From UHGV virus genome UHGV-1370141: 64,000 bases of DNA. One strand, written 5' to 3'. Both the position numbers and the translations under genes were made by a program. This stretch comes from a virus. The notes beneath the pieces were generated by a model, which saw only the letters and a list, made by a program, of their open reading frames with translations, did no database searches and was not told the DNA's origin. Below, piece by piece: positions 1-37,987 of the stretch. The number at the start of each line of letters is the position of its first letter. Positions within the stretch are counted from its first letter, which is position 1.

Positions 1-2676
1 TATTTAGAAGACGCTTTGAAACCTTACGTCTCGTATACCGAAGGGGGTGAAGCACAATTACGTGGCTTGTCTTCCGAGGACGTGAAGAAACTCGCAGAAG
101 GGTTCGGTGTAAACTTAGAAGAACGTGGTGAGATGTTAGCATTTACTGCGTTTATGCTACAACGTTTCGCACCGATTTACCTCCGTTGGATTTCAGCACT
201 GAAGTCTATGGATAACGATATCGCTTTGGCAGATGTCGGTGATCCGAAGAAAGTGTCGAAAGCGGATATGATTACCCTCTACAACAAAATGAAGATGGGT
301 AAAGATTCTGTGGAATTCCGTTCGTTGACTGACCCGCGTAAAGTTAACCAGGGTTGGTTCTCTAAAGCGTGGGATTTCGTTACCTTTACACCGGCAGAGT
401 TCTTGTCAGGGGAAGAGGTTGTCGAAGCACAGGAACGTGTGTGGCGGTCAATCAACATGCGTACCGACGACAAACGGAAACAACGTTCGGGTATGCGTGA
501 TGCCGTCGAAGGCCACAAAGTTGCGTCCGTTGCTGAAACCAGTCAGGTACTGGCGAATGCGGATGCTGAACGTAACGAGAAAGTTGCGAAGGTTGAAGGT
601 TGGGAAGACGGAACTGAACAGGTTCAAATCCAAGTTGACTGGCATTCGTTACCGAAGAAAAGCGATTTGGAAGACCTGGAATCGGTCAGGTGGAAAACCT
701 ACGGTGCGGTTACTATCAACCAAACAACGCGTAATCTTTTCACGCTGTTAGAGAAGAACGTGTTGAAAGACATTGATGTGAAGAACTGTACCTATAAAGG
801 CAACTGGAAAGAAGCCATTGCGGTTATCTCGCCTGACCTGATAGGTGGTCCTAAAGAGGAGCGTTGTAAGAACTGGTTCTACAACCGTTTCTTACCGGCG
901 TATATGACCTACGTCGTTGGTCTGAAACGTTACATTCCGCAAGCAGACCCTACCGAATTGAAAGTATCCGGTGGGTTCATGTACGAATTAGCGTTGATGA
1001 TTCGTGGCGCTTACAACATGAAGGGCGGTATTCGTCAGTCCGTGTGGGAGATTCCATTCAACCCGCTGGGTGAGGAAGCAAACACTGACGCAGGTTCTGT
1101 TGCTACTGAACTTGCCAACCTGAAAGAACTGTCAAAAGAACCTGACCTGGCTGTTCGTAACACCCTGCGCTCTACACCCGCAGCAGGAAAACGTGCGAAG
1201 TGGCAGAAAGCCGATCGTGCGACGAGAATGTATCAAACCGACGAAGATACCAAAGATCGTTTCAAAGGTGTCGTTGATTGGGGTACAGCGTCTAACGATG
1301 GGTACTTGCCAAACGGTGGGTCGTCTTACGGTACACCGGGCGATCTGACTCAAGTTGTGGGTGAGATGGGCATCAGCAATTACGCGAAGTTCTCTACGGG
1401 CCAATCCGGGATTAAACTCGGGGACGTCAAAGAAGGTGATTACAAAACCTTGGCTGAGAAGTATCCAATCAGCAAACTGGGTGATGGTAAATCACCTAAC
1501 GTAGAAGGCGTTAAAGCGATGATTGCGGATGTCGCAAATACCTTAGGTGTTCCGCCTGCGGTCGCGATTGCGATGGCGAAAGCCGAATCTGATTTCAAAT
1601 ACGGTGTCAAGAACCCAGGTGCGTCAGCAGCAGGGTTGTTCCAGTTCATTGACAAAACGTGGTCTGGAATGATGAAAGGGTATTCTCGTCGGTACGGTAT
1701 ACCGCAAGTAAACCAGTATGACCCGTGGGCAAATACCATCCTCGGGGTACAGTTTATTCGTGACAATATCATGCAGGCGCAGAAAGACTTGGGTGGTGTA
1801 GAACCGCCTCCGGCTGTTGCGTATCTGTATCACTTCTTGGGTCCAGGCGGTGGTAAGAAGTTCCTTAATGCGTGGCGTCAGAATCCGAACATGCCAGCCG
1901 ACAAAGCAGAAGGCATTACTCCTCAAATCCTTAGAGGTAATAAGGGGGTCTTCTACGAAATGCGTGGCAAACAGATTGTTCGTATTCGTACTGTTGGCGA
2001 AGTTATTAATGAACTGAACCGCCGTATGGGTGCTGTGGCGACAAACGAAATTGCGGCTAACCCAGCTTCAACGAAAGACATGGTGAAAGGGCTAACGCCT
2101 GCGGTTGCCTCCTCTCCGGCGGTAGCAGCAGGGGCAGCTAACGATCCATCAATTTCTGGAGCGACGGATAACTTGCCTGCGTCCAATGCGGCGCGTCGTG
2201 ACGATGCGTTAGCAGAGAAAGGTGCAATGAGTGCAGACAACGTCAAAGCCGCAACCAGTGGTGGTCCGGCAGTACCGTCACCTGGCGGTAGTAGTGCAGG
2301 CGGCGACGCCTCTATGATTGGGGAGACCGTTGCAGCCGGAGCCAGAAACGAAGGGTTGCCTGAAGAAGATGTCGAGAAGGTGAAAGAAGGTGCTATGCAG
2401 CGCGTAGCAGCGACGAGTAAACCGGCACCTGCGGTTACTTCTGATGCACAAAACGGGCCTACACTCAGTAATGGTGATCCGATTAGTGTTCAGCAGTTGG
2501 CTGTTGCGAAAGAATCGGCGGGCTATCTCAAAGAGATTGTCACGATCCTTAAACAACGCCCGCAGCCGGTTCAAAACACTGTATCGTCTAAACCTACGGC
2601 ACCAGCAGGTTCAGCATCACGACAAATGTCCGTTGAACAGCCAGCACGACAGCTTAACGTTAGACGTGCAGGTTAA
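1..2676 (+). CDS. Large virion-associated protein with lytic transglycosylase (SLT) domain; 5' end lies outside the window
   Basis: Frame open to position 1 (listed ORF begins at a TTG at 16). SLT-type motif AESDFKYGVKNPGASAAGLFQFIDKTW (E-S...A-G-L-x-Q...TW). C-terminal about 200 aa is A/G/S/P-rich low complexity. Followed by a hairpin. Confidence 0.7.
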   Translation, partial: YLEDALKPYVSYTEGGEAQLRGLSSEDVKKLAEGFGVNLEERGEMLAFTAFMLQRFAPIYLRWISALKSMDNDIALADVGDPKKVSKADMITLYNKMKMGKDSVEFRSLTDPRKVNQGWFSKAWDFVTFTPAEFLSGEEVVEAQERVWRSINMRTDDKRKQRSGMRDAVEGHKVASVAETSQVLANADAERNEKVAKVEGWEDGTEQVQIQVDWHSLPKKSDLEDLESVRWKTYGAVTINQTTRNLFTLLEKNVLKDIDVKNCTYKGNWKEAIAVISPDLIGGPKEERCKNWFYNRFLPAYMTYVVGLKRYIPQADPTELKVSGGFMYELALMIRGAYNMKGGIRQSVWEIPFNPLGEEANTDAGSVATELANLKELSKEPDLAVRNTLRSTPAAGKRAKWQKADRATRMYQTDEDTKDRFKGVVDWGTASNDGYLPNGGSSYGTPGDLTQVVGEMGISNYAKFSTGQSGIKLGDVKEGDYKTLAEKYPISKLGDGKSPNVEGVKAMIADVANTLGVPPAVAIAMAKAESDFKYGVKNPGASAAGLFQFIDKTWSGMMKGYSRRYGIPQVNQYDPWANTILGVQFIRDNIMQAQKDLGGVEPPPAVAYLYHFLGPGGGKKFLNAWRQNPNMPADKAEGITPQILRGNKGVFYEMRGKQIVRIRTVGEVINELNRRMGAVATNEIAANPASTKDMVKGLTPAVASSPAVAAGAANDPSISGATDNLPASNAARRDDALAEKGAMSADNVKAATSGGPAVPSPGGSSAGGDASMIGETVAAGARNEGLPEEDVEKVKEGAMQRVAATSKPAPAVTSDAQNGPTLSNGDPISVQQLAVAKESAGYLKEIVTILKQRPQPVQNTVSSKPTAPAGSASRQMSVEQPARQLNVRRAG

Positions 2677-15035: not shown

Positions 15036-15711
15036 ATAGCGCAGAATCACGTGGGTCGACACCGACCCACTCTGCCATAAACCGGATGTGTTCCTTGAAC
15101 GGATTCACACCATCGCGTTTAAGCTGCTCTACCGTCTCTTTTGTAAGTTCCGGCGTTAGCAGGGCAGGGTGCGTAATGGTAAAGCTAGGGATAGGCTTTT
15201 TCAGATGTTTCGCATTGAGTTCAATCCAAGCGAACCAATCGTACATTATCCAACAATCCCAAGCTGTCGCTAAACGACCCGGCGTAAGTTCCGAATGCGG
15301 CCACGACACTAACTCAACCTGCACCATATCGTAATAGATACGGAACATCTGCAAGAACGTTTGCATTTCTTGGTCAGTAAGATCAGTATACGGCCAGGTG
15401 TTAATTGTCAGCGTCGGTTTTTCGATAGGCGAATGCATCTCGATTTCGAGTAACATACATTCGAACTCGTTCTTCATCGTCAACAACAGTTCGGTGGGTT
15501 CTGCATTCATCAACGCGCGTTTATCGCGTTTCTGATATTCCTCTTTCCAATTCTCAAACCCCAAGACAGTCGCCCATTCCTCCGTAAAACGACGACGATA
15601 AACGTCGTAATCCATAATTTCCAATCTTTCAGGTTTGATGGCTTTGACCCAACCGATTCGGGTGTCAAACAACGCATCGATATCAATCAAAAAACGTCGA
15701 GAAAATCTCAT
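14989..15711 (-). CDS. Hypothetical protein (240 aa)
   Basis: ORF; 3' end converges with 14571..15035. Confidence 0.45.
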   Translation of the reverse strand: MRFSRRFLIDIDALFDTRIGWVKAIKPERLEIMDYDVYRRRFTEEWATVLGFENWKEEYQKRDKRALMNAEPTELLLTMKNEFECMLLEIEMHSPIEKPTLTINTWPYTDLTDQEMQTFLQMFRIYYDMVQVELVSWPHSELTPGRLATAWDCWIMYDWFAWIELNAKHLKKPIPSFTITHPALLTPELTKETVEQLKRDGVNPFKEHIRFMAEWVGVDPRDSALFSLARPKKDAQTPQS

Positions 15712-16376
15712 GACGGATGGCCTATGTTGTTACCAATGTGCATCGCTTTCAGATACGCAGACCAGGTACGTGTTGCTTTCGAACTGGTACGTTCTGCTCC
15801 CGGCAGGTCAATACGTCCCTTACCGGTTTGACGTAACGATTGATAGAACGCACGTTGTAAAGCTTCGTTACCCCCACGCGCCCACAGAAACTCTTTCAGT
15901 GTCCAGTCGTGACCATCGGAGTACATGATGTACGCTTCTGGGAAAGATACACCAGATGCTTTAGAAGGACCAACAACTTGACCGGAGAGTTTATCACGAA
16001 CTTTGTCGTTCTTCGCTACTGCCATTTTCTTTTCTTGCATCTGCGTTTGACGACGCGCAGGCAAGCGCAATACCAGATGTGGGTAGCGGGTACGATGGAA
16101 AACACCCGTTTTCGGCTCAGTTAACCACAATCGCTGTTCCAGGTTCAAACCTAAAACACGACATAGCTTAACGTTTCGCATGTGGTCGATTTTAACTTTA
16201 CTGCCGACCGGGTTGTAAATCGGTAAGCCTTCACGAAGACGATTAAACTGTTCGTCCGTCATTCGAGCAAAGGCTTTCTTTGCTGCCTCTGCGTTAATCC
16301 CAGAGGGGTCAACCAGGCTTAAGATTTGTAAGGCGTAAGCTTCTGCTTTTTTACGCCGCGCTGGATCGAGTTTCAT
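15708..16376 (-). CDS. Hypothetical protein (222 aa)
   Basis: ORF with 4-nt overlap with the downstream gene. Confidence 0.45.
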   Translation of the reverse strand: MKLDPARRKKAEAYALQILSLVDPSGINAEAAKKAFARMTDEQFNRLREGLPIYNPVGSKVKIDHMRNVKLCRVLGLNLEQRLWLTEPKTGVFHRTRYPHLVLRLPARRQTQMQEKKMAVAKNDKVRDKLSGQVVGPSKASGVSFPEAYIMYSDGHDWTLKEFLWARGGNEALQRAFYQSLRQTGKGRIDLPGAERTSSKATRTWSAYLKAMHIGNNIGHPS

Positions 16377-16650
16377 TTTCTACCGCCTTACGCAAGTTGG
16401 AAAGTGTCCCTGCTTCGAGGGTTTCAATCCAATAACTGATGTCGTCGGTGTTTTCAGGTACGTCGAATTTCACCGGCGGGTAACCGTAGTGTTCGAGTAA
16501 CTTGGAATAATATTCACCGACCTTTAAACAAAAAGATTCACGATCGGGAAAGAAAGTAGCGAAAGTCTCACGAAATGCCGCTGCTGTTTCCAGACTGACG
16601 CTGGCTAAACCTTCGCTTAAGCGCTCCACAATCTCCGTTTGATAACGCAT
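16351..16650 (-). CDS. Hypothetical protein (99 aa)
   Basis: ORF in - block. Confidence 0.35.
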   Translation of the reverse strand: MRYQTEIVERLSEGLASVSLETAAAFRETFATFFPDRESFCLKVGEYYSKLLEHYGYPPVKFDVPENTDDISYWIETLEAGTLSNLRKAVENETRSSAA

Positions 16651-16695
16651 AACGACTCCTTAGCTAGGGTAGGGGATTACCCTACCCTAACGCTT

Positions 16696-18192
16696 TTATT
16701 TCTTTTTGGTGAGGAACTTCGGTTCCAGGCCGTCCACGGCCATACCCAGAATCGTACGGGCAGTTAACGTGCGTTTACCACCTTTCGTTTCTTGGTCTTT
16801 AAACATCCAGTATTCTACGGTGTTCTCCAGAATCTCATTCCAATCCCATTTCTCATCAATGAGTTTGTAGATTTCTTCCATCGTGAGGTGGTATTTAACC
16901 TCTAAACGATGGTAGTTGTTCTGCATGTACGCAATCGCGGCCGTGATTTCTAATGCCCGACGCAGTTTCGGGTTATCGTCGATCATGTCGCGAATCGTCG
17001 TACGCTGGAATTTAACACCAGGCAGAATCTGGAGTTCTTTAATGGAACCACCGCTACCGCTGGATGTAAATCCAAATTCGGATTTTTTCAGAGTGTCACT
17101 CAGGTAATGCCACAGGCTCAGGTGATACAGTAGACCCATCTCTTGCGAGAAGATCATCTGGAACTTCACGCCCGTGTGACCGCCTTTAGCACGGTACTGC
17201 GTAAAGGTGATAACTTTCAGGTCGTTAACCGACGCGTTCATGGCTTTTGAACGTGCGGTTGGGTAAAGTTCTTCGTTAACACCGGTCTGGGCGTTATAAC
17301 TCTGGTCTTTTTTCAGCTCGCCTGATTTTGTCGCAACAATAAACGAGTTAGTCAAGAAACTTAATTGACGACGAGGAATCCCTGCGAATTTGAGATCGTC
17401 GTTCGCATCGTCCAGCAGTTTCGCGTTTGCTTTCTGTCCTTGACGACCGCCCGCCATCGCCTTACCGGAGTCATCGGCCATCTGTGCAACAAAGCCCATG
17501 TAGAAACCACCACGGGCAAACGCAGACGGCCAACGGCTCATCATGTTCGATTTCTGTAAGGCGTCGTGGGCGTTGAGGATGTTCTGATCGGAATCACCGA
17601 TATCCGTTTTAGCGTGCTTGTCTTCCAGAGAAGACGAGTGCCACTCCGACAGGGAGTCGATAGAATACAGCCACGGGTCAAGGATTTCTTTTTGCTTACG
17701 ACGAACCGGGTCAAGGAACGGCGTTACACGCGTTTTACCAGACATATACTGCTTGAAGCGTTTTTCCACTTCATCACGAATATAGTCACTGTAATATTGT
17801 TCCCCTGGCATCACGTCAGAACCAACGAGGTTATAACGACCTTCGTGAATAAGTTCCAGTACCGAAGTTCCATCGTCAATACCGTTGGCGTGCATGGCAG
17901 AAATATAACCGGTCTCTAAGCGATCGAGGGCAGCAGACACTTCGGTATCGTATTTCGAACCCCACTCCGCTTTATAGCGTTGCAGGATTTGGAAGATACA
18001 GAAATCCAACAGTGTGGATTTGAAGGTGTTACCACGACCCGCGAAACCCATGATGTGGGCAAAACCACCGTTAAGGTAGTATAAACCATCTTCGCCTCTT
18101 TCGTAGTTGCCTAAGGCGTGGTCCATGATGGTATAAACGTTAAAACGAGGACGAATTACTTCACCGATAACTTGCTTAGTTGGGCCTGCCAT
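16696..18192 (-). CDS. RecA-superfamily recombinase candidate (UvsX-like non-canonical P-loop)
   Basis: GGFAHIMGFAGRGNTFKSTLLDF...QRYK resembles, from memory, T4 UvsX GG..G..ILAGPSKSFKS...RQYP; later IDSL. Protein is about 100 aa longer than UvsX. Confidence 0.35.
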   Translation of the reverse strand: MAGPTKQVIGEVIRPRFNVYTIMDHALGNYERGEDGLYYLNGGFAHIMGFAGRGNTFKSTLLDFCIFQILQRYKAEWGSKYDTEVSAALDRLETGYISAMHANGIDDGTSVLELIHEGRYNLVGSDVMPGEQYYSDYIRDEVEKRFKQYMSGKTRVTPFLDPVRRKQKEILDPWLYSIDSLSEWHSSSLEDKHAKTDIGDSDQNILNAHDALQKSNMMSRWPSAFARGGFYMGFVAQMADDSGKAMAGGRQGQKANAKLLDDANDDLKFAGIPRRQLSFLTNSFIVATKSGELKKDQSYNAQTGVNEELYPTARSKAMNASVNDLKVITFTQYRAKGGHTGVKFQMIFSQEMGLLYHLSLWHYLSDTLKKSEFGFTSSGSGGSIKELQILPGVKFQRTTIRDMIDDNPKLRRALEITAAIAYMQNNYHRLEVKYHLTMEEIYKLIDEKWDWNEILENTVEYWMFKDQETKGGKRTLTARTILGMAVDGLEPKFLTKKK

Positions 18193-18207
18193 TTAGCGCT
18201 CCAATAA

Positions 18208-18507
18208 TTAACGATTCTTGGTCGGAAGAAGAAGACGGCGTTTGTGCCAGAATTCAAAGTAGGTCTCTACCCACTCGGTGACTTCTTCCGATTTTTCAGG
18301 ATAGGGGTTCTCAATAGACTCGAAACGACGTTTGTTGCGCTCGTCGATTTCTAATTCCATCACGCGCTTACCGTTAGGTAAAGAGGTCACGCTAAGAATC
18401 TTACCTACTTGAATAGGCTTACCTTCTTTGTCTTTTTTCACCGGGGTAAGATAGATTTCCGGTTCCAGACGAGGCGTGGTGTTTCGAGTCAGTAATTTGA
18501 TTTTCAT
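18208..18507 (-). CDS. Hypothetical protein (99 aa)
   Basis: ORF immediately downstream of 16696..18192. Confidence 0.35.
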   Translation of the reverse strand: MKIKLLTRNTTPRLEPEIYLTPVKKDKEGKPIQVGKILSVTSLPNGKRVMELEIDERNKRRFESIENPYPEKSEEVTEWVETYFEFWHKRRLLLPTKNR

Positions 18508-18604: not shown

Positions 18605-19360
18605 ATGAACGTAAATCCACTTGCAGCGTTAACTAGCTTTGCCGCTAAAGCGTCTGCAATCTTACCCAAAGGGTTCAGTGGCCCTCAACAAGAGATTGCA
18701 TTAACCACTTACGACGACATGTCAGACGTTTCCAAGTGGATGCAACAGGAAAAATTCTTACACTTTGCAGGCATGTTGGTTATTGTACCGCCAGGCTTCA
18801 ATACCTACGTAATGGATCACATTAACCGCTTAGAATCGGTGTGGAGTTCATTACAGAAGATCTACGACGGTGTCCTTTTACCTGTTGAGTTGCAACTTTC
18901 CGCCCTTACACATGATGTGGGCGTACTGTCATTACCTATCGGTTTCCGTTATAAAAACGTTAACATTCCGTTACGTAACGTGAATCCGAAAGACCTGGTT
19001 AACCAGTTGGCTAAGTCTTACACCAACAACGTTATTGACCAGCGTCCGATTGAGAAAACGTATCACAGTGCTACGGAGATCGATATTGCGTTTAACCGTG
19101 CAAAAGCACTGAACGTTGAAATCACGAAGAAACTTCGTACGAACATCGATAAATCCATCGAGTCCATCAAAGCCTCTGCAACGATTCTGTCTGAACAAAA
19201 CATTCATCCTAACGTGGCAAAAGAACTGACAGCGATGTTAGACTTTGCATCCGATTGGGTTGAACTGTTTGGTTTGTTCATGAAACAGGTGAACGAATTG
19301 ATTGAATGTCTGAACGTGACGGCTGAACGCCTGAAAGCGCTGAAGGCAAACAAAAAATAA
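18605..19360 (+). CDS. Hypothetical protein (251 aa)
   Basis: Isolated + strand ORF with GAGG SD, followed by a clear terminator. Confidence 0.45.
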   Translation: MNVNPLAALTSFAAKASAILPKGFSGPQQEIALTTYDDMSDVSKWMQQEKFLHFAGMLVIVPPGFNTYVMDHINRLESVWSSLQKIYDGVLLPVELQLSALTHDVGVLSLPIGFRYKNVNIPLRNVNPKDLVNQLAKSYTNNVIDQRPIEKTYHSATEIDIAFNRAKALNVEITKKLRTNIDKSIESIKASATILSEQNIHPNVAKELTAMLDFASDWVELFGLFMKQVNELIECLNVTAERLKALKANKK

Positions 19361-19414: not shown

Positions 19415-20299
19415 CTAAAAACCAGATATAAAGGTGGGCGCAATCCATCGCCACTCCTGCCAGCGTGGTCCTGTCATTGGCCCACACCAGACCCGTTTCC
19501 AATGTGCCCTGCGTATGTGCGCTGCGCGATGAGGCGTTAAACAGATTCTCCTGCCTTCCCTGCGTTGTTTTTCTAAGTCTTCGCGTTGTACTGGACTTAC
19601 GTCAACAACGACAGGTTCTCTCCGTGGGAGGATTTCTGTATCAGGTACGTAACGTGTCGTTCTACCACGGTATTCCCGTCTCTCGCGTTCCGATTTCTTC
19701 ACCCGCGAGGAAAGATATAAACCGATATGTACCTCATCCAGAAGTTCCTCGTCCTTTGACTCGTTAGCAAAGTAAGGCTCTAAACTAACAAAGTCATCTG
19801 CCTTTCTGTTGAACCGATAAATCTTGGTTGTCCAACAGTGCCGCTGATTTATCTCCACCCATCGTAAAACGAACAATACTTCTTCACCTTCGAATTTACG
19901 ACGACCGATAAAGAGCGTAGCAGGAAGTTCGTTAATCTTGACAGTCACGGAAAAGGTGAATGAAGGGATGGCTTCAATCCACGCGTACGGAATATCCGTT
20001 AAACGTTCTGTGTCTGCAAGTAATCCCATCAGCTCTTTATCAGAGATAATTTCAATACCTGCGTATTGCCAACCCAAACCTAACGACTGACGAATAGAAT
20101 ACGGCACCTGTTTGGTGGTGCCGAACTCACGGTACGTTGGGTCGTTAACGGGCAGAAAGGTTACGGGAAGTTGTCTCTTGTGTTCCCTGACAAACGTTAG
20201 AAAACGATCTTCTTTCAGACCAAACAAGTCTTTGTGTGCAGTCTCTATAGCTTCACTAATACGTCGAAGCGTGTCTCCATAAATTCTGCGTCTTAACAT
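19415..20299 (-). CDS. Paralogue A of a two-gene family with conserved basic C-terminal motif (AAHIRRAHWKRVW.GP)
   Basis: Start moved to internal Met (MLRRRIYGD) with AGGAGA SD, removing the 113-nt overlap with the upstream paralogue; shares GW.Y.G, IPa.T and the C-terminal motif with 20310..21242. Confidence 0.5.
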   Translation of the reverse strand: MLRRRIYGDTLRRISEAIETAHKDLFGLKEDRFLTFVREHKRQLPVTFLPVNDPTYREFGTTKQVPYSIRQSLGLGWQYAGIEIISDKELMGLLADTERLTDIPYAWIEAIPSFTFSVTVKINELPATLFIGRRKFEGEEVLFVLRWVEINQRHCWTTKIYRFNRKADDFVSLEPYFANESKDEELLDEVHIGLYLSSRVKKSERERREYRGRTTRYVPDTEILPRREPVVVDVSPVQREDLEKQRREGRRICLTPHRAAHIRRAHWKRVWCGPMTGPRWQEWRWIAPTFISGF

Positions 20300-20309
20300 T
20301 ATAATTCTC

Positions 20310-21242
20310 CTAGTCTTGCGTGTGGGGTACGTAGCCTCGGACAAATGTCGGTGGAATCCAGCAAAGTTTTCTTTTTCTTTCACCGTTTCTTGGGCCAACC
20401 CAGTATCTACGCCAGTGTGCACGACGTATATGTGCAGCTTTGGCGTGTTTGATACCCTGCATGGCTTTCAAGTCGGTGTTAAATCCTTTTAGATATTTTA
20501 CTTGTCCTGGTGTGATATCAACCTTAACATCACGTTCTCGCGGTTTAACGTCGTAACTAATACTACCGTTCTTTTTGATTTCCCTGAACTTAATATCATT
20601 AAAAGACTCCCTGTAATTAGGCGGGATTAGCGTGCACAGAAATATCATCGAAGTGGCGGCTTTGGCCAGAGATAACCATAACATCTTCTCTTCTTCGGTC
20701 TGTACGCCAGTTGTATAATCAATTTCAACAAGCCCGTTTCCTACACTACGAAGCTCTAACGAACAAGTGGCAATTGTGGTAACTCCTTCTGTTAACCCGT
20801 AATCAGTATTTGTAGCGATTATAATAAACCTTTTCTTCCCATTTTTTCGATAGCCGAGAAAGAAAGTCTCATCCTCTTTACCTACGTCGATTGCCACAGT
20901 CCATGCGGGTATAAAGTCCAACCATTCTTCAGGGAATTTACTGGGCATCTCAGTCTCGAAAACAAGTTCTCTAAGTGCTTGGTTGGATATTAAGGAAACC
21001 CCGCCATATAGCCACCCGATTGCCAACGTTTGTGCGTGAAGGGAACGTGGATCTTTGAGACCTAACTCAGTGTCGTAGGGTATAAAGGAATTGGTTAAAT
21101 GGTTACGATTCTTTTTTATCCATTTCGAGACAGGATTTTCTTTTGTTTGGTTTTCTTCCATGACATTTTCTAGATGCTGACTCCCCATTTGTCTAAGACA
21201 GTCTTTAATACCTTTTACTTTTTTACTTTTGTACAAATACAT
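20310..21242 (-). CDS. Paralogue B of the same family (C-terminal AAHIRRAHWRRYWVGP)
   Basis: 310-aa ORF in tandem with paralogue A; same C-terminal motif. Confidence 0.5.
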   Translation of the reverse strand: MYLYKSKKVKGIKDCLRQMGSQHLENVMEENQTKENPVSKWIKKNRNHLTNSFIPYDTELGLKDPRSLHAQTLAIGWLYGGVSLISNQALRELVFETEMPSKFPEEWLDFIPAWTVAIDVGKEDETFFLGYRKNGKKRFIIIATNTDYGLTEGVTTIATCSLELRSVGNGLVEIDYTTGVQTEEEKMLWLSLAKAATSMIFLCTLIPPNYRESFNDIKFREIKKNGSISYDVKPRERDVKVDITPGQVKYLKGFNTDLKAMQGIKHAKAAHIRRAHWRRYWVGPRNGERKRKLCWIPPTFVRGYVPHTQD

Positions 21243-23131: not shown

Positions 23132-23803
23132 CTATCTAAGAAAGTTTTTAGCGAAATAGGGATCGATGTGAAACGCTTTCACGAGAGAATCATAGCCGGA
23201 GTGAATCTGATCGGAGTTGAGCAGGAAACGGTCTAGATCGTGAGGCAATATCCAGGCGTCACCTTGTTTGAAAATAGTGTGACCTACAGTTTCTGGAGAA
23301 AATCGAATTTCTTCCGGGAAGGGATACGTTTGCTTCAAATCGAGGTCGGTGGGTTTTAAGGTAACTAAACGAACGGGTCGTTTACTGGCCACCTCCTTAA
23401 CGAATTGGTTACGATCAAACCAGATAATCTTTTCAGGGTAGCTTTCCAGCTCACTCCAGACCTTGTTAATCACCAGATTAAAGTTCTGTTGCAGTTCCCC
23501 GGATTGGTTAGCGTAACCTAAGCACTCTTCTACCAAAGCTGGATTACCGTAAGTGTTAGTAATAACCTGTGCAATCACACGTTGTGGGAAACAATCTTTC
23601 GGTATATCACAACCTGCATTGTACAATGCAATGATTTCCCACAATGAGCGTAAGGCAAGTTCAAGTGACACTTCCCCGAGTGTATAGTGGTCGTCAGAAT
23701 AGGGGGCTTTAAAGCCCCACTGCTGACGCGCAATTGCTGAAAAGCGTATCTGGATATAACTCGGTGCCATCGATAACGCTTGACTAAAAACAATCAGCAT
23801 CAA
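23132..23803 (-). CDS. Hypothetical protein (223 aa)
   Basis: ORF with 4-nt overlap with the upstream gene. Confidence 0.4.
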   Translation of the reverse strand: MMLIVFSQALSMAPSYIQIRFSAIARQQWGFKAPYSDDHYTLGEVSLELALRSLWEIIALYNAGCDIPKDCFPQRVIAQVITNTYGNPALVEECLGYANQSGELQQNFNLVINKVWSELESYPEKIIWFDRNQFVKEVASKRPVRLVTLKPTDLDLKQTYPFPEEIRFSPETVGHTIFKQGDAWILPHDLDRFLLNSDQIHSGYDSLVKAFHIDPYFAKNFLR

Positions 23804-25311
23804 AGTTCCTTATCGGTCAATATTCGTTTGTTTGAATAATAACCACACCATAGACCATGATACTTCTCACCGATATACACTAACGCGTATTCAATATACT
23901 GACGTTCTGGACGACGTACGGCAATGTAGAATCGCCCGTTTGGTTCTTTGATACGGTTGATTTCCGTACGCGTCGGTATGTCGATAGCACGCGTAAGAAT
24001 AGTTTTAACGTCAACCTTCCCGTTAGGGATTTTAATGGAAACGTCAAACCCTTTATCCACGTTTCGGTAAAAGTCTTTGGTGGGTTTACCTTTTTCGTCA
24101 TAAAGCAAATCGGTAATATCATTTAAGACAACGTTCGATTTGCCTTCCAAACAGTCACGCAGCCACTCTGCCAGTTCATCACGAATGGTTACGCAGCGGT
24201 ATGACAATAACGCGGGACGCAGAATACGACTGATAGACAAGTCTTCGTACATCCACAGGTTTTTGTCTTCGCTAAAGTGCATTTTGTCAACCGGGATACC
24301 GTTAGCCGCAGCTTCCGCAAACTTCTTACGTTTTACGAACAGGTTGAACACAACAGCGATAGGGTCAAACTGACGCAAACGTGGTACGCCCTCCCAGGCT
24401 TTAGCAGCGTGGGCGTTAACCAAATCATAAACGTTCGTCCACGGCTCACGTGTAAACATCACACAAAACTGCGCATCAGGGATGTATTTTCCGACGAAGA
24501 CAATATCGTCCTTCTGTTTTGCGTGGTTACCCCCGAACATGTAATAGAGATTTTCACCGTTTACTTTAACTGTAGGGTGTTGCTCATTTACCATCGGGTA
24601 GCAGAACTTGGTTACGCAAATATCAGGAAACGCGGCAACGTTAACGCCTTCACTGACGATTTCTTCCTGCTGTTCTTCCGGGATTTCGTCTGCTGACCAG
24701 TACGCCTGATAATCTAAACCTTCTCCGTGCGCAGAGATGGATGATCCTTTTCGTGCCAGCCCGTCAGCTCGTTCGTTACCGTAGTGACCAGAGTGTCCTT
24801 TGATTTTAAGAACACGAATCCCTTTTCCTTCTTTCTTCAGACGTTTCTTAATTTCCCACATCCGTTGAACCAGCTCAAGGTTCGCGATAGGGGTTCCATC
24901 AGCCCGTCGCCAGTCCCGCTTAGCCCAACCGTCAATCCAATCGTTAAACGTATTCACAACGTAAGACGCGTCGATATAGATAACGTAGTTTTTTGCAACG
25001 AACGGTGCTTTTTCGAAAACGGTTAAAAAAGCAACAATCTCTGCAACATCGGAGTGGTGGTGTTTCGGTACCGGAATAACACAGTCTACGAACTCAACAG
25101 AGTCCGGTAGCGCAGGAAGTTTTTCCTCTTTGTTAATCTGGCGATAACCAGAGGTCGTAATCCCTTCGGGAATGGTAGGGTGGCGATAAACGCCACCGTC
25201 AACAATCTCTTCCTTGTTAAACAGGTAGCCGTGAATCCCACCGCCTGTTCCCATCGGTGAGGTTAAATGGCTACCGTCGGTATAAAGTACAGCAACATCA
25301 ACGTTCTTCAT
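23800..25311 (-). CDS. RNase HI-domain protein fused to a roughly 300-aa C-terminal domain of unknown function
   Basis: N-terminal RNase HI catalytic set: VAVLYTDGS, SDVAEIVAF, YIDASYV, KGHSGHYGNERADGLA (compare E. coli RNase HI EIFTDGS ... KGHAGHPENERCDELA). Remainder unassigned. Confidence 0.7.
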   Translation of the reverse strand: MKNVDVAVLYTDGSHLTSPMGTGGGIHGYLFNKEEIVDGGVYRHPTIPEGITTSGYRQINKEEKLPALPDSVEFVDCVIPVPKHHHSDVAEIVAFLTVFEKAPFVAKNYVIYIDASYVVNTFNDWIDGWAKRDWRRADGTPIANLELVQRMWEIKKRLKKEGKGIRVLKIKGHSGHYGNERADGLARKGSSISAHGEGLDYQAYWSADEIPEEQQEEIVSEGVNVAAFPDICVTKFCYPMVNEQHPTVKVNGENLYYMFGGNHAKQKDDIVFVGKYIPDAQFCVMFTREPWTNVYDLVNAHAAKAWEGVPRLRQFDPIAVVFNLFVKRKKFAEAAANGIPVDKMHFSEDKNLWMYEDLSISRILRPALLSYRCVTIRDELAEWLRDCLEGKSNVVLNDITDLLYDEKGKPTKDFYRNVDKGFDVSIKIPNGKVDVKTILTRAIDIPTRTEINRIKEPNGRFYIAVRRPERQYIEYALVYIGEKYHGLWCGYYSNKRILTDKEL

Positions 25312-25313
25312 TC

Positions 25314-26048
25314 TTAATCCCTGGTTAACTGATCACGAATCTGTGGTGGAATATACTCACCGGTTTTCAGTTCTTCGTGACAGGCTTTAGCACGTTCGTA
25401 CCCATACTCGCGAGTAATCAGTGCAAGGTGATAAATACGTGCGGTGGTATAAGCTTCTTTCGCGGCATCCCACAAAGCATGGTGTTCAAATGCCGGTTTA
25501 CCCCGCGTCCAGTAAACTTGCTCAACGGTCAAGTCAGGCTCAAAACCAAACGCCAGCGCTAAACGTTCTGCGGTGCGGTCACTGTCTAACGCGCTGAACT
25601 TACGGAATTTACCTGGAGGGACGTCACATTGTGCGAACGCGTTCATGAAAATCGGCGAATCGAAATCCGGACCACGCATGGTGATAACAAAATTGTGTTT
25701 ACCGGTGATTTCGTCTAACCACTTACGCATCGCCCACAGCGCTTCCGGCATAGGAGTTGTACCGCCCCATGCTTCCGTGTAGGCTTCACGAGACGGTGCG
25801 TATTCAGGTTCCCCTTTACCTTCCCACCATCCTACGGTCTGTGGGTCTTCGTGGAACACAGCTTTTGCTTTAGGGTCGTTAGGATCAATACGCATATACG
25901 ACGACCCCACCATTTTTAAAGTCGGTACGTCAAAGGCAACTAAGCCCGTGGTTAACAGATACGCATCAGGACGCAGTGATTTAGTTTCTGCGTCGGCACC
26001 GATTACCAACGTCGGTAAGGTGGGTTGAATCGTTTTCGGGTATGTCAT
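25314..26048 (-). CDS. DEDDh 3'-5' exonuclease (T4 DexA-like)
   Basis: LVIGADAETKS (Exo I D-x-E), GPDFDSPIF (Exo II), HHALWDAAKE (H-x4-D Exo III); overall order resembles T4 DexA from memory. Confidence 0.6.
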   Translation of the reverse strand: MTYPKTIQPTLPTLVIGADAETKSLRPDAYLLTTGLVAFDVPTLKMVGSSYMRIDPNDPKAKAVFHEDPQTVGWWEGKGEPEYAPSREAYTEAWGGTTPMPEALWAMRKWLDEITGKHNFVITMRGPDFDSPIFMNAFAQCDVPPGKFRKFSALDSDRTAERLALAFGFEPDLTVEQVYWTRGKPAFEHHALWDAAKEAYTTARIYHLALITREYGYERAKACHEELKTGEYIPPQIRDQLTRD

Positions 26049-34605: not shown

Positions 34606-34806
34606 TCATGACTTCCCTCCAACACACCGCCACTCACATTCGCGTTGGTGCCAAATTGAACCCCAGGTGAGCCTAATCGCGTACGCTAAGACCACCCATA
34701 AAATCGCCGTTATACAAAATAGCACGTACAGAATGGCAACCAGCACCATGACGCTAAACCCTAAAACGCTTAGTAACTGACGCCACCAATCAGTTTGCGT
34801 AGACAA
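34606..34806 (-). CDS. Small membrane protein (66 aa)
   Basis: Hydrophobic core LLSVLGFSVMVLVAILYVLFCITAILWVVLAYAI; TTG start whose codon overlaps the SbcC-like gene 3' end. Confidence 0.35.
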   Translation of the reverse strand: MSTQTDWWRQLLSVLGFSVMVLVAILYVLFCITAILWVVLAYAIRLTWGSIWHQRECEWRCVGGKS

Positions 34807-37312
34807 TTTTTACTCCTTCGTTGTAAACCGCAGGCAGTGTTACGCCTTCAGGTTCAATAACACAGTATGCGGCTTCGTTAAGTTTTGAATGAATTTCTGC
34901 TTCGTGAGATACCACCAGTAACTGAGAGAACTCACCGGAATTCGCCAGGGTTTTAATAAACCCAACGAGGTTATTTCGGTGTTCTTCATCCATCCCTTCT
35001 GACGGCTCATCCAACAGTAGCGGATACTGATGAAGTTTCAGGGCTTTGTAAGCGGTTAAACGAAACATCAAATTAAAGATGGCTCGCTGCGCTTTCGACC
35101 CTTTCCGCACGTCAGGTACCGGTTCAGGATGGGTTTTTAACTGCACTGGGAACGTGTAGTCTAAGTCACCGTCGGTTAAGTCACACGGCATGACCCGCAT
35201 AGGGTAGGTCCAGACTTGTTCGATATATCGCGTCATCAATTCCGTGATTCTCACGATAGCGTTGTAGAAGTATTTGCGTAGTACCCCTTTCTCGGGCGAG
35301 AACGCTTGAATCATCAGTTTGTTATTGAATTGCTGTGCCTGTAAATCCGATAACTCCTTTTCTAACGCAGTAAGTTGGTTGAGCTCGTTTTCCATCTGAC
35401 GGTACCGTTCCCGTGCTGTGGTGAACGCATCCAACTTGTTTTCTCGGGCGTTTAATAACGTTTCGACCACCGTGTTGGTTAATGTTACCTTAACATCGTT
35501 CTCTAAACGCTCAAAAACCGCATTAAAATTGTCTACAGTGGCTTTAAGTTCGTTTAGATAACAAAAGGTATCATTAGCAACTGCGTGCTCTCTACGGCGC
35601 TCTGAGAGCGTTTCTGTCGCCTTACCCAAACGCTCCTGCTGGAAGGCAATTTTCTGCTGTAGAGCACCATCAACGTTACCTACCGCTGCAACTGCGTTTG
35701 CCCACTCTTTTTCCGCTTTAGCAAAACGGTGTTTCGTTTCGTGGTATTCAATTGCGGAATAAAGTTCACGATCGAACTCTGCACACAAACTGCCAAACTG
35801 ACTGCGGTTATCCGTAAAGACATTCCGCTCCTGGAGACGTTTAAAGAACAAACTCAATACCGGGTCTTTCGAGTATGTTAAAACGATTTCCCGCACTTGG
35901 CGCATGTAATTAACGTCCGACTCTAATTCCGTACGGTCTCGCAACACGGAATCAAGCTGAGTCTGTAACGTATTACGTTGCTCCATTTGTCCACGAATGG
36001 CTTCTTCCAATTCAGGCAAAGAACGACGCACGCCCGGACGGAATTTAAATTGACACTGCGGACAATCAACCTCTGCGGTTTCCAAATAGTGATTCCGTTC
36101 GTGGTTGAGGTTCTGCAATACGTTTTCAACGCGTTGTAGTCGGTCACGCAACCCAGATGAGTTCTGGTCTAAGGTCAACAGTTTCTCTTCCAGTACGTTC
36201 AACCGTTCCGTTGATTTAATAGCATCCAGCGTTGTTCCTAAACGTTGTCCCCAGACACGCGCATCCGTCGCTGCTTTAAGCTGGTCAATGTTAACGGTCT
36301 CCGCAAACAGTTCAGGGAAAAGATGTTCGGTGTCCCACTGCTTTAATAACTCACGCAGTTTTGCAACCGTGTTCTTTAACCCTTCGTGATTCCGCATCAG
36401 GTAATCTTGGCGGGTAGACTCGTCCATCAACAGAGACAAATCTTTGTTTAGCATAGACAGCTCTGTTTCAGCAGAGACCACCGCTTCACGGGCAGTGGCT
36501 TCAACGCGTCGTGCTTCCTCTACCTGTTCTTCCGTAGGTAATCCACCACGGTGTTCCAAGATAGCATTAATCGGTGCTTCGATTTTAAGCAATAGCGATT
36601 GAATCGTTGCCACCGTAACGTCACGATTCAGGCCCGGCAGTTGTTCAATCTGTTTGTTGAGTTCACGTAAATCTGCTTCTAATGCTTTTAACCGTGTTGC
36701 TAACTGCTGACGTTCTTCCTCGTTATCAATCACGCGGGTACGCAACTCTGCAATCTTGCGGCTGGTGATTTCAATACCGCCGTTTAACATCGTCAGGTTT
36801 TTTCGTAAACGTTGATAAAAACCTAACGCGTAAGTTAAGTCTGACGTACTTAAACGGTAGAACCACTTACGACGCAGTTCCGTTCCTGCATCCGTTAAAA
36901 GCACTTCTCCGTTCAGTAACTCTTTAATCTCTTTTGTAATGCCCGTGATTTCTTCTACACGAGAGTTATACACTTTCGCATTACCTTGTTCGACGATTTT
37001 GGTACCCGTCGTCAGGTTCTCGATATCGCAAACCAGTGAGTTGCCTTTACGTGCAACCTTAAATTTGTAACGATGGTCGTTAACCAAACAGATGTTGGTG
37101 TAAGAACCCCCGTCACGGAATTCGGATTTCGAAGGTGCGATAGGTAGAAACACGGACAGTAAGCTGGTCTTACCGCAGCCGTTACCACCGAGGATAATAG
37201 TGGTTGGGGAATGGATAGTAAAATCGAAGGTTTCGATTTCGTGTAGTCCCATCCCGGTAAACCCTTTAAGTACAATACGTTCAACTTTTAACATGTCCAC
37301 CTCCATATTCAC
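34790..37312 (-). CDS. SbcC/Rad50-like SMC-family ATPase with zinc hook
   Basis: N-terminal Walker A IILGGNGCGKTSLL; long coiled-coil middle with CPQC zinc-hook; C-terminal Walker B LLLDEPSEGMD and H-loop VVSHEAE. Confidence 0.8.
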   Translation of the reverse strand: MNMEVDMLKVERIVLKGFTGMGLHEIETFDFTIHSPTTIILGGNGCGKTSLLSVFLPIAPSKSEFRDGGSYTNICLVNDHRYKFKVARKGNSLVCDIENLTTGTKIVEQGNAKVYNSRVEEITGITKEIKELLNGEVLLTDAGTELRRKWFYRLSTSDLTYALGFYQRLRKNLTMLNGGIEITSRKIAELRTRVIDNEEERQQLATRLKALEADLRELNKQIEQLPGLNRDVTVATIQSLLLKIEAPINAILEHRGGLPTEEQVEEARRVEATAREAVVSAETELSMLNKDLSLLMDESTRQDYLMRNHEGLKNTVAKLRELLKQWDTEHLFPELFAETVNIDQLKAATDARVWGQRLGTTLDAIKSTERLNVLEEKLLTLDQNSSGLRDRLQRVENVLQNLNHERNHYLETAEVDCPQCQFKFRPGVRRSLPELEEAIRGQMEQRNTLQTQLDSVLRDRTELESDVNYMRQVREIVLTYSKDPVLSLFFKRLQERNVFTDNRSQFGSLCAEFDRELYSAIEYHETKHRFAKAEKEWANAVAAVGNVDGALQQKIAFQQERLGKATETLSERRREHAVANDTFCYLNELKATVDNFNAVFERLENDVKVTLTNTVVETLLNARENKLDAFTTARERYRQMENELNQLTALEKELSDLQAQQFNNKLMIQAFSPEKGVLRKYFYNAIVRITELMTRYIEQVWTYPMRVMPCDLTDGDLDYTFPVQLKTHPEPVPDVRKGSKAQRAIFNLMFRLTAYKALKLHQYPLLLDEPSEGMDEEHRNNLVGFIKTLANSGEFSQLLVVSHEAEIHSKLNEAAYCVIEPEGVTLPAVYNEGVKIVYAN

Positions 37313-37378: not shown

Positions 37379-37987
37379 TTACGGCTGGTAGAGTTTGTAA
37401 CCCATCTCCTGCCAGTTTTGGATATTTTTCGATTGCTCAACCCAAGCCTGGCCTGCGTCGGACGCAACAACTTCCATCGTCAGTAAACAAATCAGATTGG
37501 TAACGGGAACACATTTGCCTGGTGTAACGTCATCCAAATACACCGGATACAGATAAGGTGATTTGATGCTTTGATACGGATAGGAATAATGCGTTCCTAC
37601 AACCCAACCTTCTTCCACCGGGCAGAGGTTAAAGGTACGCGTTTCTGGGATTTCCCCTTCAGAGATCCAATTTACAACGTCGGCCTTAATACGGCCGTTG
37701 TCGATGTAGTAGAACACAACACGTTGCGGGATACCTGCACCCCCGGTAGGGTCTATTGCTTCCAGCGCTTTAAACGGTGTATTATTTAGCGTAGTACGGT
37801 TATCTAACGCGTACATCAGCTTTTCGTAAGCGGTTGGCGTTTTACGTTCGAAATACGCTTTCAAACGCGGGTACGCTAAGAACCCTTCGACTTCTTCCTC
37901 CATTAAATCGATGAATAACGGAGAATGTGGATTAGCTTCGTTTAGTCGCATCGCTTCGATAAAACGAACCAAAGTAATTTCGTTCAT
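37379..37987 (-). CDS. Hypothetical protein (202 aa)
   Basis: ORF directly upstream of the SbcC-like gene; no metallophosphoesterase motifs seen, so not an SbcD/Mre11 homologue by eye. Confidence 0.4.
   Translation of the reverse strand: MNEITLVRFIEAMRLNEANPHSPLFIDLMEEEVEGFLAYPRLKAYFERKTPTAYEKLMYALDNRTTLNNTPFKALEAIDPTGGAGIPQRVVFYYIDNGRIKADVVNWISEGEIPETRTFNLCPVEEGWVVGTHYSYPYQSIKSPYLYPVYLDDVTPGKCVPVTNLICLLTMEVVASDAGQAWVEQSKNIQNWQEMGYKLYQP

What the first reader, a model, noticed from the sequence alone, without database searches (positions are those of the whole stretch)
16696..18192. UvsX-like non-canonical P-loop in a 498-aa protein
The segment GGFAHIMGFAGRGNTFKSTLLDF...LQRYK parallels the unusual Walker A region I recall for T4 UvsX (GG..G..ILAGPSKSFKS...RQYP), not the canonical GxxxxGK(S/T). 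A later IDSL block could be the Walker B region. The protein is about 100 residues longer than UvsX and the C-terminal half does not obviously match. If correct, this is a divergent or extended recombinase; if not, it is an unassigned ATPase.
Basis: partly seen in the sequence, partly recalled or inferred. Interest (0 to 1): 0.4.

Follow-up and report, generated by a model that had tools for sequence, protein, structure and literature searches.

The report
Jumbo-phage UvsX/RecA-like recombinase (Nlp1 ortholog)

The parts
16696..18192 (-). CDS, 498 aa: chimallivirus UvsX/RecA-like recombinase (ortholog of Asesino gp238, homolog of phiKZ gp152/Nlp1)
18199..18202 (-). Shine-Dalgarno GGAG, 6-nt spacer to the ATG at 18192
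   Evidence: read directly from the sequence; the MAGP N-terminus is conserved in homologs, which confirms the start
18013..18048 (-). Walker A / P-loop, residues 49-60 GFAGRGNTFKST (K58). Non-canonical, with Phe where the canonical motif has Gly, as in T4 UvsX GPSKSFKS
   Evidence: G52, G54, N55, K58 invariant, F57 25/26, S/T59 26/26; aligned to UvsX 57-68 by hhalign
17941..17952 (-). YDTE, residues 81-84: end of strand beta2 with the putative catalytic Glu E84 (T4 UvsX E92, RecA E96)
   Evidence: D82 and E84 invariant; aligned to UvsX YDSE; role of E92 from PMC3016280
17674..17940 (-). Expanded segment between the catalytic Glu and Walker B, residues 85-173 (96-residue anchor spacing vs 52 in UvsX and 49 in RecA). 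Includes invariant R91 at the position of the adenine-stacking Tyr and an extra beta-hairpin at residues 154-171
   Evidence: anchor spacing; DSSP of the model E154-161, E166-171; R91 aligned to UvsX Y99; R91 invariant
17650..17673 (-). Walker B strand, residues 174-181 WLYSIDSL (D179)
   Evidence: D179 and S180 invariant; strand E174-178 in the model; IDSL identical in T4 UvsX; aligned to RecA VDSV in the sub-significant
17581..17643 (-). L1-equivalent region, residues 184-204, containing IGDS (RecA L1 also reads IGDS)
   Evidence: G199 and N204 invariant; IGDS/IGDS register (alignment not significant on its own); assignment inferred
17482..17484 (-). Q237: allosteric-switch position at the end of strand beta4 (RecA Q194, T4 UvsX H195)
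   Evidence: column is His in 23/26 and Gln in 3/26; FVAQ aligned to RecA FINQ and to UvsX INHT region; role of H195 from PMC3016280
17395..17481 (-). L2-equivalent DNA-binding loop, residues 238-266, about 12 residues longer than in UvsX; predicted disordered
   Evidence: pLDDT below 50 for residues 241-260; K258 and L260 invariant; spacing; L1/L2 are disordered in all DNA-free RecA-family crystals (PMC3016280)
17224..17316 (-). Family-specific insertion of about 31-34 residues (293-323) between core strands beta5 and beta6
   Evidence: anchor spacing 67 vs 33/33; variable length in the family alignment
17185..17193 (-). R334-A-K336: candidate trans-acting basic pair at the subunit interface (RecA K248/K250, UvsX K246/R248)
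   Evidence: R334 and K336 invariant; same 14-15 residue spacing to the next strand as in UvsX/RecA; role from PMC3016280; equivalence inferred
16699..17130 (-). C-terminal domain, residues 355-498. About 58 residues weakly resemble the RecA C-terminal domain; the remaining ~85 residues, probably the far C-terminal helices, have no solved counterpart
16665..16689 (-). Perfect 10-bp hairpin (TAGGGTAGGG-TAATC-CCCTACCCTA) 6 nt after the stop codon, followed by the next gene's RBS and ATG at 16650. No T-run on the coding strand
   Evidence: function not tested

Best explanation
The gene encodes the RecA-family recombinase of an SPN3US/Asesino-like nucleus-forming jumbo phage (Chimalliviridae). It is the ortholog of Asesino gp238 'UvsX' and of phiKZ gp152/Nlp1. 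Proposed mechanism, inferred from the fold and the invariant residues: the protein binds ATP through a UvsX-style P-loop (K58), Walker B D179 and catalytic E84. It polymerises on single-stranded phage DNA through loops L1 (around IGDS 198-201) and L2 (238-266). ATP hydrolysis is coupled across the subunit interface by R334/K336 and the Q/H237 switch. The filament then carries out homology search and strand exchange. Shown in homologs, not in this phage: the protein is made in the cytoplasm and selectively imported into the proteinaceous phage nucleus, where it supports recombination-dependent replication and repair of damaged phage DNA. Four family-specific insertions and a larger C-terminal domain account for the ~107 extra residues relative to T4 UvsX. 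Their function is unknown.
Against: No Pfam RecA (PF00154) or PF21134 hit for this protein or any of 25 homologs, whereas T4-type UvsX proteins all carry both. No PDB sequence hit, even with a profile. hhalign probability is only 12-53% and the comparison with E. coli RecA alone is not significant (E 0.45). Only about 12 residues precede the conserved beta0/LDxALG-like motif, against about 32 in UvsX and 37 in RecA, so the N-terminal helix that builds RecA/UvsX filaments appears absent. The adenine-stacking Tyr (UvsX Y99) is an invariant Arg here. No held paper reports ATPase or strand-exchange activity for any jumbo-phage member. Motif equivalences beyond the hhalign region are my own anchoring, not a residue-level structural alignment.
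Confidence: 0.87

Rival explanations
1. It is a RecA-superfamily ATPase with a DNA transaction other than strand exchange. Examples are a ring helicase or branch-migration motor (DnaB, RadA/Sms-like) or a Sak4/RadB-like annealing or accessory protein. The 'UvsX' name would then be propagated annotation.
Confidence: 0.08
2. It is a catalytically inert RecA-fold protein kept for a structural or trafficking role in the phage nucleus, for example as an import cargo or adaptor or as a DNA-coating protein.
For: It is best known experimentally as an import cargo that can carry fused proteins into the nucleus. It is non-essential in PCH45. It has a non-canonical P-loop and Arg in place of the adenine-stacking Tyr.
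Against: Every ATPase residue (K58, S/T59, E84, D179) and the interface R334/K336 are invariant across 26 sequences down to 27% identity. The same F-for-G P-loop is fully active in T4 UvsX. The phiKZ deletion has a DNA-replication and nuclease-tolerance phenotype.
Confidence: 0.03
3. The motif resemblance is a chance match in an unrelated protein or a non-coding ORF.
For: The bare G....FK[ST] pattern is expected 0.5 times per shuffle of the window's open stretches.
Against: The combined pattern is expected 0.01 times. There are 885 cluster representatives of the family in 1.84 billion proteins, almost all matched end to end at 460-530 aa. The motif residues are invariant. The fold prediction is confident and RecA-like.
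Confidence: 0.01

Closest known systems
Chimallivirus 'UvsX' / phiKZ gp152 (Nlp1) and its orthologs: Asesino gp238, Goslar gp193, PCH45 gp72, RAY gp150, PhiPA3 gp175
   Same: Full-length homology (81% to Asesino gp238; 28% and E 2e-46 to phiKZ gp152). Same length class (479-498 aa) and the same four insertions. Same gene neighbourhood: RNAP-beta fragment, small ORFs, this gene, an opposite-strand head-protein gene, then RNase H. Many GenBank records already label it 'putative UvsX'.
   Different: It is a new sequence: the nearest phage record is about 81% identical at protein level and about 74% at DNA level, and the nearest metagenome protein is 96% identical. The window protein has Gln at the switch position where most of the family has His. 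Its P-loop reads GRGNTFKS against SRPNNFKT in phiKZ. Imp2, which phiKZ Nlp1 needs for import, is reported to be conserved only in Pseudomonas phages, so import here must use other determinants.
Bacteriophage T4 UvsX (PDB 3io5; Pfam PF00154 + PF21134)
   Different: No HMMER-level similarity, and neither Pfam domain is detected. It is 107 residues longer through insertions of +44, +12, +34 and +20. About 20 fewer residues lie N-terminal to the core, so there is no N-terminal association helix. Arg replaces Tyr99. It acts inside a protein-bounded phage nucleus. I did not look for a UvsY-like mediator beyond the two flanking 99-aa ORFs, which have no informative hits.
Bacterial RecA (e.g. PDB 3cmu, 8amd)
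   Different: 12-14% identity. Non-canonical P-loop. Missing N-terminal helix. Large insertions and a roughly 85-residue extra C-terminal portion.
Rad51/RadA/DMC1 and RAD51 paralogs; Sak4
   Different: Lower scores than RecA/UvsX. The extra domain is C-terminal as in RecA/UvsX, not N-terminal as in Rad51/RadA. Sak4 and RadB are core-only proteins of about 220 aa.

Membership tests
RecA/UvsX/Rad51 recombinase superfamily | RecA-type alpha/beta ATPase core fold | tested here: met
RecA/UvsX/Rad51 recombinase superfamily | Walker A P-loop with invariant Lys followed by Ser/Thr | tested here: met
   G52-R-G54-N55-T-F57-K58-S59; K58 26/26, S/T59 26/26. Non-canonical (Phe for Gly) exactly as in T4 UvsX
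RecA/UvsX/Rad51 recombinase superfamily | Walker B: hydrophobic strand ending in Asp | tested here: met
   WLYSID179S; D179 26/26; predicted strand 174-178
RecA/UvsX/Rad51 recombinase superfamily | Catalytic Glu after strand beta2 (RecA E96, UvsX E92) | tested here: met
   E84 26/26, 26 residues after the P-loop anchor as in UvsX (26) and RecA (24); aligned by hhalign
RecA/UvsX/Rad51 recombinase superfamily | [quoted passage not shown] | tested here: inconclusive
   Correct positions; L2 predicted disordered (241-260) with invariant K258; L1 carries IGDS as in RecA. DNA binding itself is not testable here
RecA/UvsX/Rad51 recombinase superfamily | Allosteric switch Gln/His at the end of beta4 (RecA Q194, UvsX H195) | tested here: met
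   Q237 in the window; His 23/26 and Gln 3/26 in the family
RecA/UvsX/Rad51 recombinase superfamily | Trans-acting basic residues at the subunit interface (RecA K248/K250, UvsX K246/R248) | tested here: met
   R334 and K336 invariant at the same spacing. The equivalence comes from motif anchoring, not from a residue-level superposition
RecA/UvsX/Rad51 recombinase superfamily | N-terminal helix/strand that packs on the neighbouring protomer to build the filament (RecA 1-33, UvsX 1-29) | tested here: not met
   Only about 12 residues (MAGPTKQVIGEV) precede the conserved RPxFN...D24xxxG28 motif; no helix is predicted before residue 21. A different or shorter polymerisation element is needed if it forms filaments
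RecA/UvsX/Rad51 recombinase superfamily | ssDNA-dependent ATPase, helical filament, strand exchange | not testable with these tools
   No report for any jumbo-phage member in the held literature; only genetic and localisation data exist
Pfam RecA (PF00154) / T4-type UvsX (PF00154 + PF21134) | Score above the Pfam gathering threshold | tested here: not met
   No hit at E up to 10 for the protein or at E up to 1 for 26 family members. All 120 listed T4-type UvsX carry both domains. The family profile finds only 885 representatives, so it does not reach canonical RecA
PHROG 97 'UvsX-like recombinase' | Significant match to the family HMM, shared with T4 UvsX | tested here: met
   E 1e-54, profile positions 43-351; T4 UvsX E 9.4e-105, profile positions 20-355
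Chimallivirus UvsX / Nlp1 (phiKZ gp152) family | End-to-end homology to experimentally studied members | tested here: met
   81% over 498 aa to Asesino gp238; E 2e-46 over residues 12-495 to phiKZ gp152
Chimallivirus UvsX / Nlp1 (phiKZ gp152) family | Conserved genomic position next to the RNAP-beta fragment gene and upstream of the RNase H-like gene | tested here: met
   Window 15708-16376 (phrog_3233), 16696-18192, 18605-19360 (+), 23800-25311 (RNase H), compared with phiKZ gp149, gp152, gp153, gp155 and Asesino gp240, gp238, gp236, gp226
Chimallivirus UvsX / Nlp1 (phiKZ gp152) family | Selective import into the phage nucleus | not testable with these tools
   Shown for orthologs and homologs only

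The most novel reading that the evidence does not exclude
The chimallivirus UvsX clade may be a structurally distinct branch of the RecA family that builds its filament differently. It lacks the N-terminal helix of RecA/UvsX and may instead use the short conserved N-terminal peptide (MAGP...RPxFN) or one of its insertions. Its clade-specific insertions (the beta-hairpin at residues 154-171, residues 293-323, and the C-terminal helical extension) may be the surfaces read by the phage-nucleus import machinery. Recombinase architecture would then have been remodelled for life inside a protein-bounded compartment.
Probability: 0.2. Interest if true: 0.45.

Novelty: already known. Interest (0 to 1): 0.15.

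Why it matters
It confirms that the window comes from a nucleus-forming jumbo phage and that this gene is its recombinase. That protein is already used in the field as a marker and carrier for import into the phage nucleus, and in phiKZ it is needed to tolerate a CBASS nuclease. Some value remains because this clade, about 885 clusters at 50% identity, is invisible to standard RecA HMMs. It has never been characterised biochemically or structurally, and it seems to lack the canonical filament-forming N-terminal helix. A filament structure could therefore show a variant assembly mode of a RecA-family recombinase. None of this is specific to this window.

Full report
OBSERVATION. The ORF listing shows an ATG-to-stop ORF of 498 aa at exactly 16696..18192, on the minus strand. 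The plus-strand reading of the same interval is full of stops. A GGAG Shine-Dalgarno lies 6 nt upstream of the ATG. The conserved MAGP N-terminus in homologs confirms the start. The bare pattern G....FK[ST] is not rare: 2 were observed against 0.5 expected per shuffle. The P-loop followed by D[ST]E at the right spacing occurs once against 0.01 expected.

SOURCE AND FAMILY. tblastn against phage genomes finds 278 records, almost all jumbo phages. The best are Salmonella phage SPN3US and relatives (81%) and Erwinia phages phiEaH2, Asesino and Stratton (about 80%). phiKZ-like Pseudomonas phages follow at about 27% over 98% of the length. Many of these genes are already annotated 'putative UvsX'. 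At DNA level the region is only about 74% identical to those phages, and the closest protein is a 96%-identical metagenome sequence. The protein is 81% identical end to end to Asesino gp238. It is homologous over residues 12-495 to phiKZ gp152 (E 2e-46). Gene order is conserved: an RNAP-beta fragment gene (15708-16376, phrog_3233), a small ORF, this gene, an opposite-strand gene (18605-19360), and an RNase H-like gene further on (23800-25311). This matches phiKZ gp149, gp152, gp153, gp155 and Asesino gp240, gp238, gp236, gp226. An exhaustive HMMER search with the family profile finds 885 representatives at 50% identity among 1.84 billion proteins. Almost all are 460-530 aa and match end to end. 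This is a discrete family that does not merge with canonical RecA in sequence space.

IS IT A RecA/UvsX PROTEIN? Sequence methods are nearly blind here. Pfam gives nothing for the protein or for any of 26 aligned homologs, and none of the 50 database homologs carries a precomputed Pfam domain. In contrast, every T4-type UvsX listed carries PF00154 and PF21134. PDB sequence searches with the protein and with the profile find nothing relevant, and BLASTP against T4 UvsX is not significant. The positive sequence evidence comes from three results. PHROG 97 'UvsX-like recombinase' hits at E 1e-54 over profile positions 43-351, and T4 UvsX hits the same model at E 9e-105 over positions 20-355. Against an 18-sequence UvsX profile, hhalign gives E 1.4e-4 and probability 53% over 155 columns, from the P-loop to the strand before L2.

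ANATOMY. These residues are invariant in 26 homologs: G52, G54, N55 and K58 (P-loop GRGNTFKS); D82 and E84 (YDTE, matching UvsX YDSE with catalytic E92); D179 and S180 (IDSL, the same tetrapeptide as the T4 UvsX Walker B); G199 and N204 (L1 region, IGDS as in RecA L1); K258 (L2); R334 and K336 (at the position of UvsX K246/R248 and RecA K248/K250); and S349 and Q350. Position 237 is His in 23 of 26 and Gln in 3 of 26, the two residues used at the RecA Q194 / UvsX H195 allosteric switch. The residue roles come from the T4 review PMC3016280. Anchor spacing shows where the extra length sits; values are window / T4 UvsX / RecA. The unchanged spacings are GG to P-loop 15/16/17, P-loop to Glu 26/26/24, Walker B to L1 20/21/16 and R-x-K to the next strand 14/15/15. 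The expanded spacings are Glu to Walker B 96/52/49 (including an extra beta-hairpin at 154-171), switch to post-L2 32/20/23, post-L2 to R-x-K 67/33/33, and the C-terminal remainder 150/130/89. phiKZ gp152 shares all of these expansions (87, 27, 56, 158). The ~107 extra residues are thus four clade-wide insertions in a conserved core, not a fused unrelated half.

Two departures are worth recording. First, only about 12 residues precede the conserved RPxFN...DxxxG motif, against about 32 in UvsX and about 37 in RecA, and no N-terminal helix is predicted. The canonical filament-forming N-terminal element therefore appears to be missing. Second, the adenine-stacking Tyr (UvsX Y99) aligns with an invariant Arg, R91.

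FUNCTION. Direct evidence exists only for homologs. GFP or mCherry fusions of Asesino gp238, Goslar gp193, PCH45 gp72 and RAY gp150 localise to the phage nucleus. phiKZ gp152 (Nlp1) is a standard nuclear cargo whose import needs Imp1 and Imp2. phiKZ delta-nlp1 replicates more slowly, makes small plaques, has a competitive index of 0.05 and becomes sensitive to the CBASS NucC nuclease. PCH45 uvsX is non-essential. No held paper reports ATPase or strand-exchange activity for a jumbo-phage member. The PDB 'putative phage UvsX' entries are extremophile-metagenome proteins, not jumbo-phage ones. The best explanation, at confidence 0.87, is an ATP-dependent RecA-family recombinase imported into the phage nucleus for recombination-dependent replication and repair. 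The ATPase and strand-exchange steps are inferred from the fold and the invariant catalytic residues. The localisation and phenotype are shown in relatives. The window also encodes RNase H-like, Rv2179c-like exonuclease and SbcC-like proteins, which suits a replication and recombination module.

VERDICT. The protein is an ortholog of an already annotated and partly studied family, so the novelty rating is 'already known' and interest is low (0.15). The most novel reading not excluded (probability about 0.2) is that this clade assembles filaments without the canonical N-terminal helix and that its insertions serve nuclear import.

Noticed in passing
window 19415-20422 (-) and 20310-21242 (-): Tandem paralogs (25% identity, E 1e-24), both phrog_6160 of unknown function with no Pfam hit. 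They share a C-terminal motif AAHIRRAHW(K/R)RxWxGP...W(I)xPTF. Asesino has a single gene at this position (gp235). The longest-ORF GTG start of the first overlaps the second by about 110 nt, so its true start is probably further downstream.
   Followed up: partly
window 16665-16689: A perfect 10-bp GC-rich hairpin lies 6 nt after the recombinase stop codon and just before the next gene's RBS. No T-run follows on the coding strand, so it is not a canonical terminator. It could be an mRNA processing or stability element.
   Followed up: partly
window 47986-52311, 52322-56506, 56602-61785 (+): Three very large tandem genes (1441, 1394 and 1727 aa) that cross-hit the same virion-protein PHROGs (2163, 7557, 8078, 7449). 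They form a paralogous array of giant structural proteins.
   Followed up: no
window 34790-37312 (-): An 840-aa SbcC/Rad50-like protein (phrog_77 E 2e-92; Pfam SMC_N below threshold). The adjacent ORFs I scanned showed no obvious SbcD/Mre11 partner; 37379-37987 is phrog_9964 of unknown function.
   Followed up: partly
window 23800-25311 (-) and 25314-26048 (-): An RNase H-like 503-aa protein (counterpart of phiKZ gp155/Nlp2) sits directly next to an Rv2179c-like 3'-5' exonuclease.
   Followed up: no
window 16351-16650 (-) and 18208-18507 (-): Two conserved 99-aa ORFs flank the recombinase gene (phrog_6181 and phrog_10750, unknown function, no Pfam hit). The first overlaps the RNAP-beta fragment gene by 26 nt and shows no similarity to phiKZ gp151. 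Whether either is a recombination accessory factor is untested.
   Followed up: partly
P0021-P0024 (635-636 aa), P0180 (773 aa), P0190 (716 aa): Some family members carry an extra N-terminal extension of 140-280 aa fused to the complete recombinase domain. The extension was not examined.
   Followed up: no
P0030, P0031, P0033, P0037, P0038 (Salmonella phages SPFM1-15): These hits have strong HMMER scores but only 4-12% BLAST coverage and odd lengths (280-477 aa). This suggests frameshifted or error-containing copies of the gene in those deposited genomes.
   Followed up: no
window 16-2676 (+): This open frame is the C-terminal 886 aa of a tail-fibre/transglycosylase protein of more than 2400 aa (phrog_3201 positions 1515-2405), cut off by the window start.
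   Followed up: no
window 17920-17922 (residue R91): An invariant Arg occupies the position that hhalign equates with the adenine-stacking Tyr99 of T4 UvsX (RecA Tyr103). This may be a family-specific change in nucleotide contact.
   Followed up: partly
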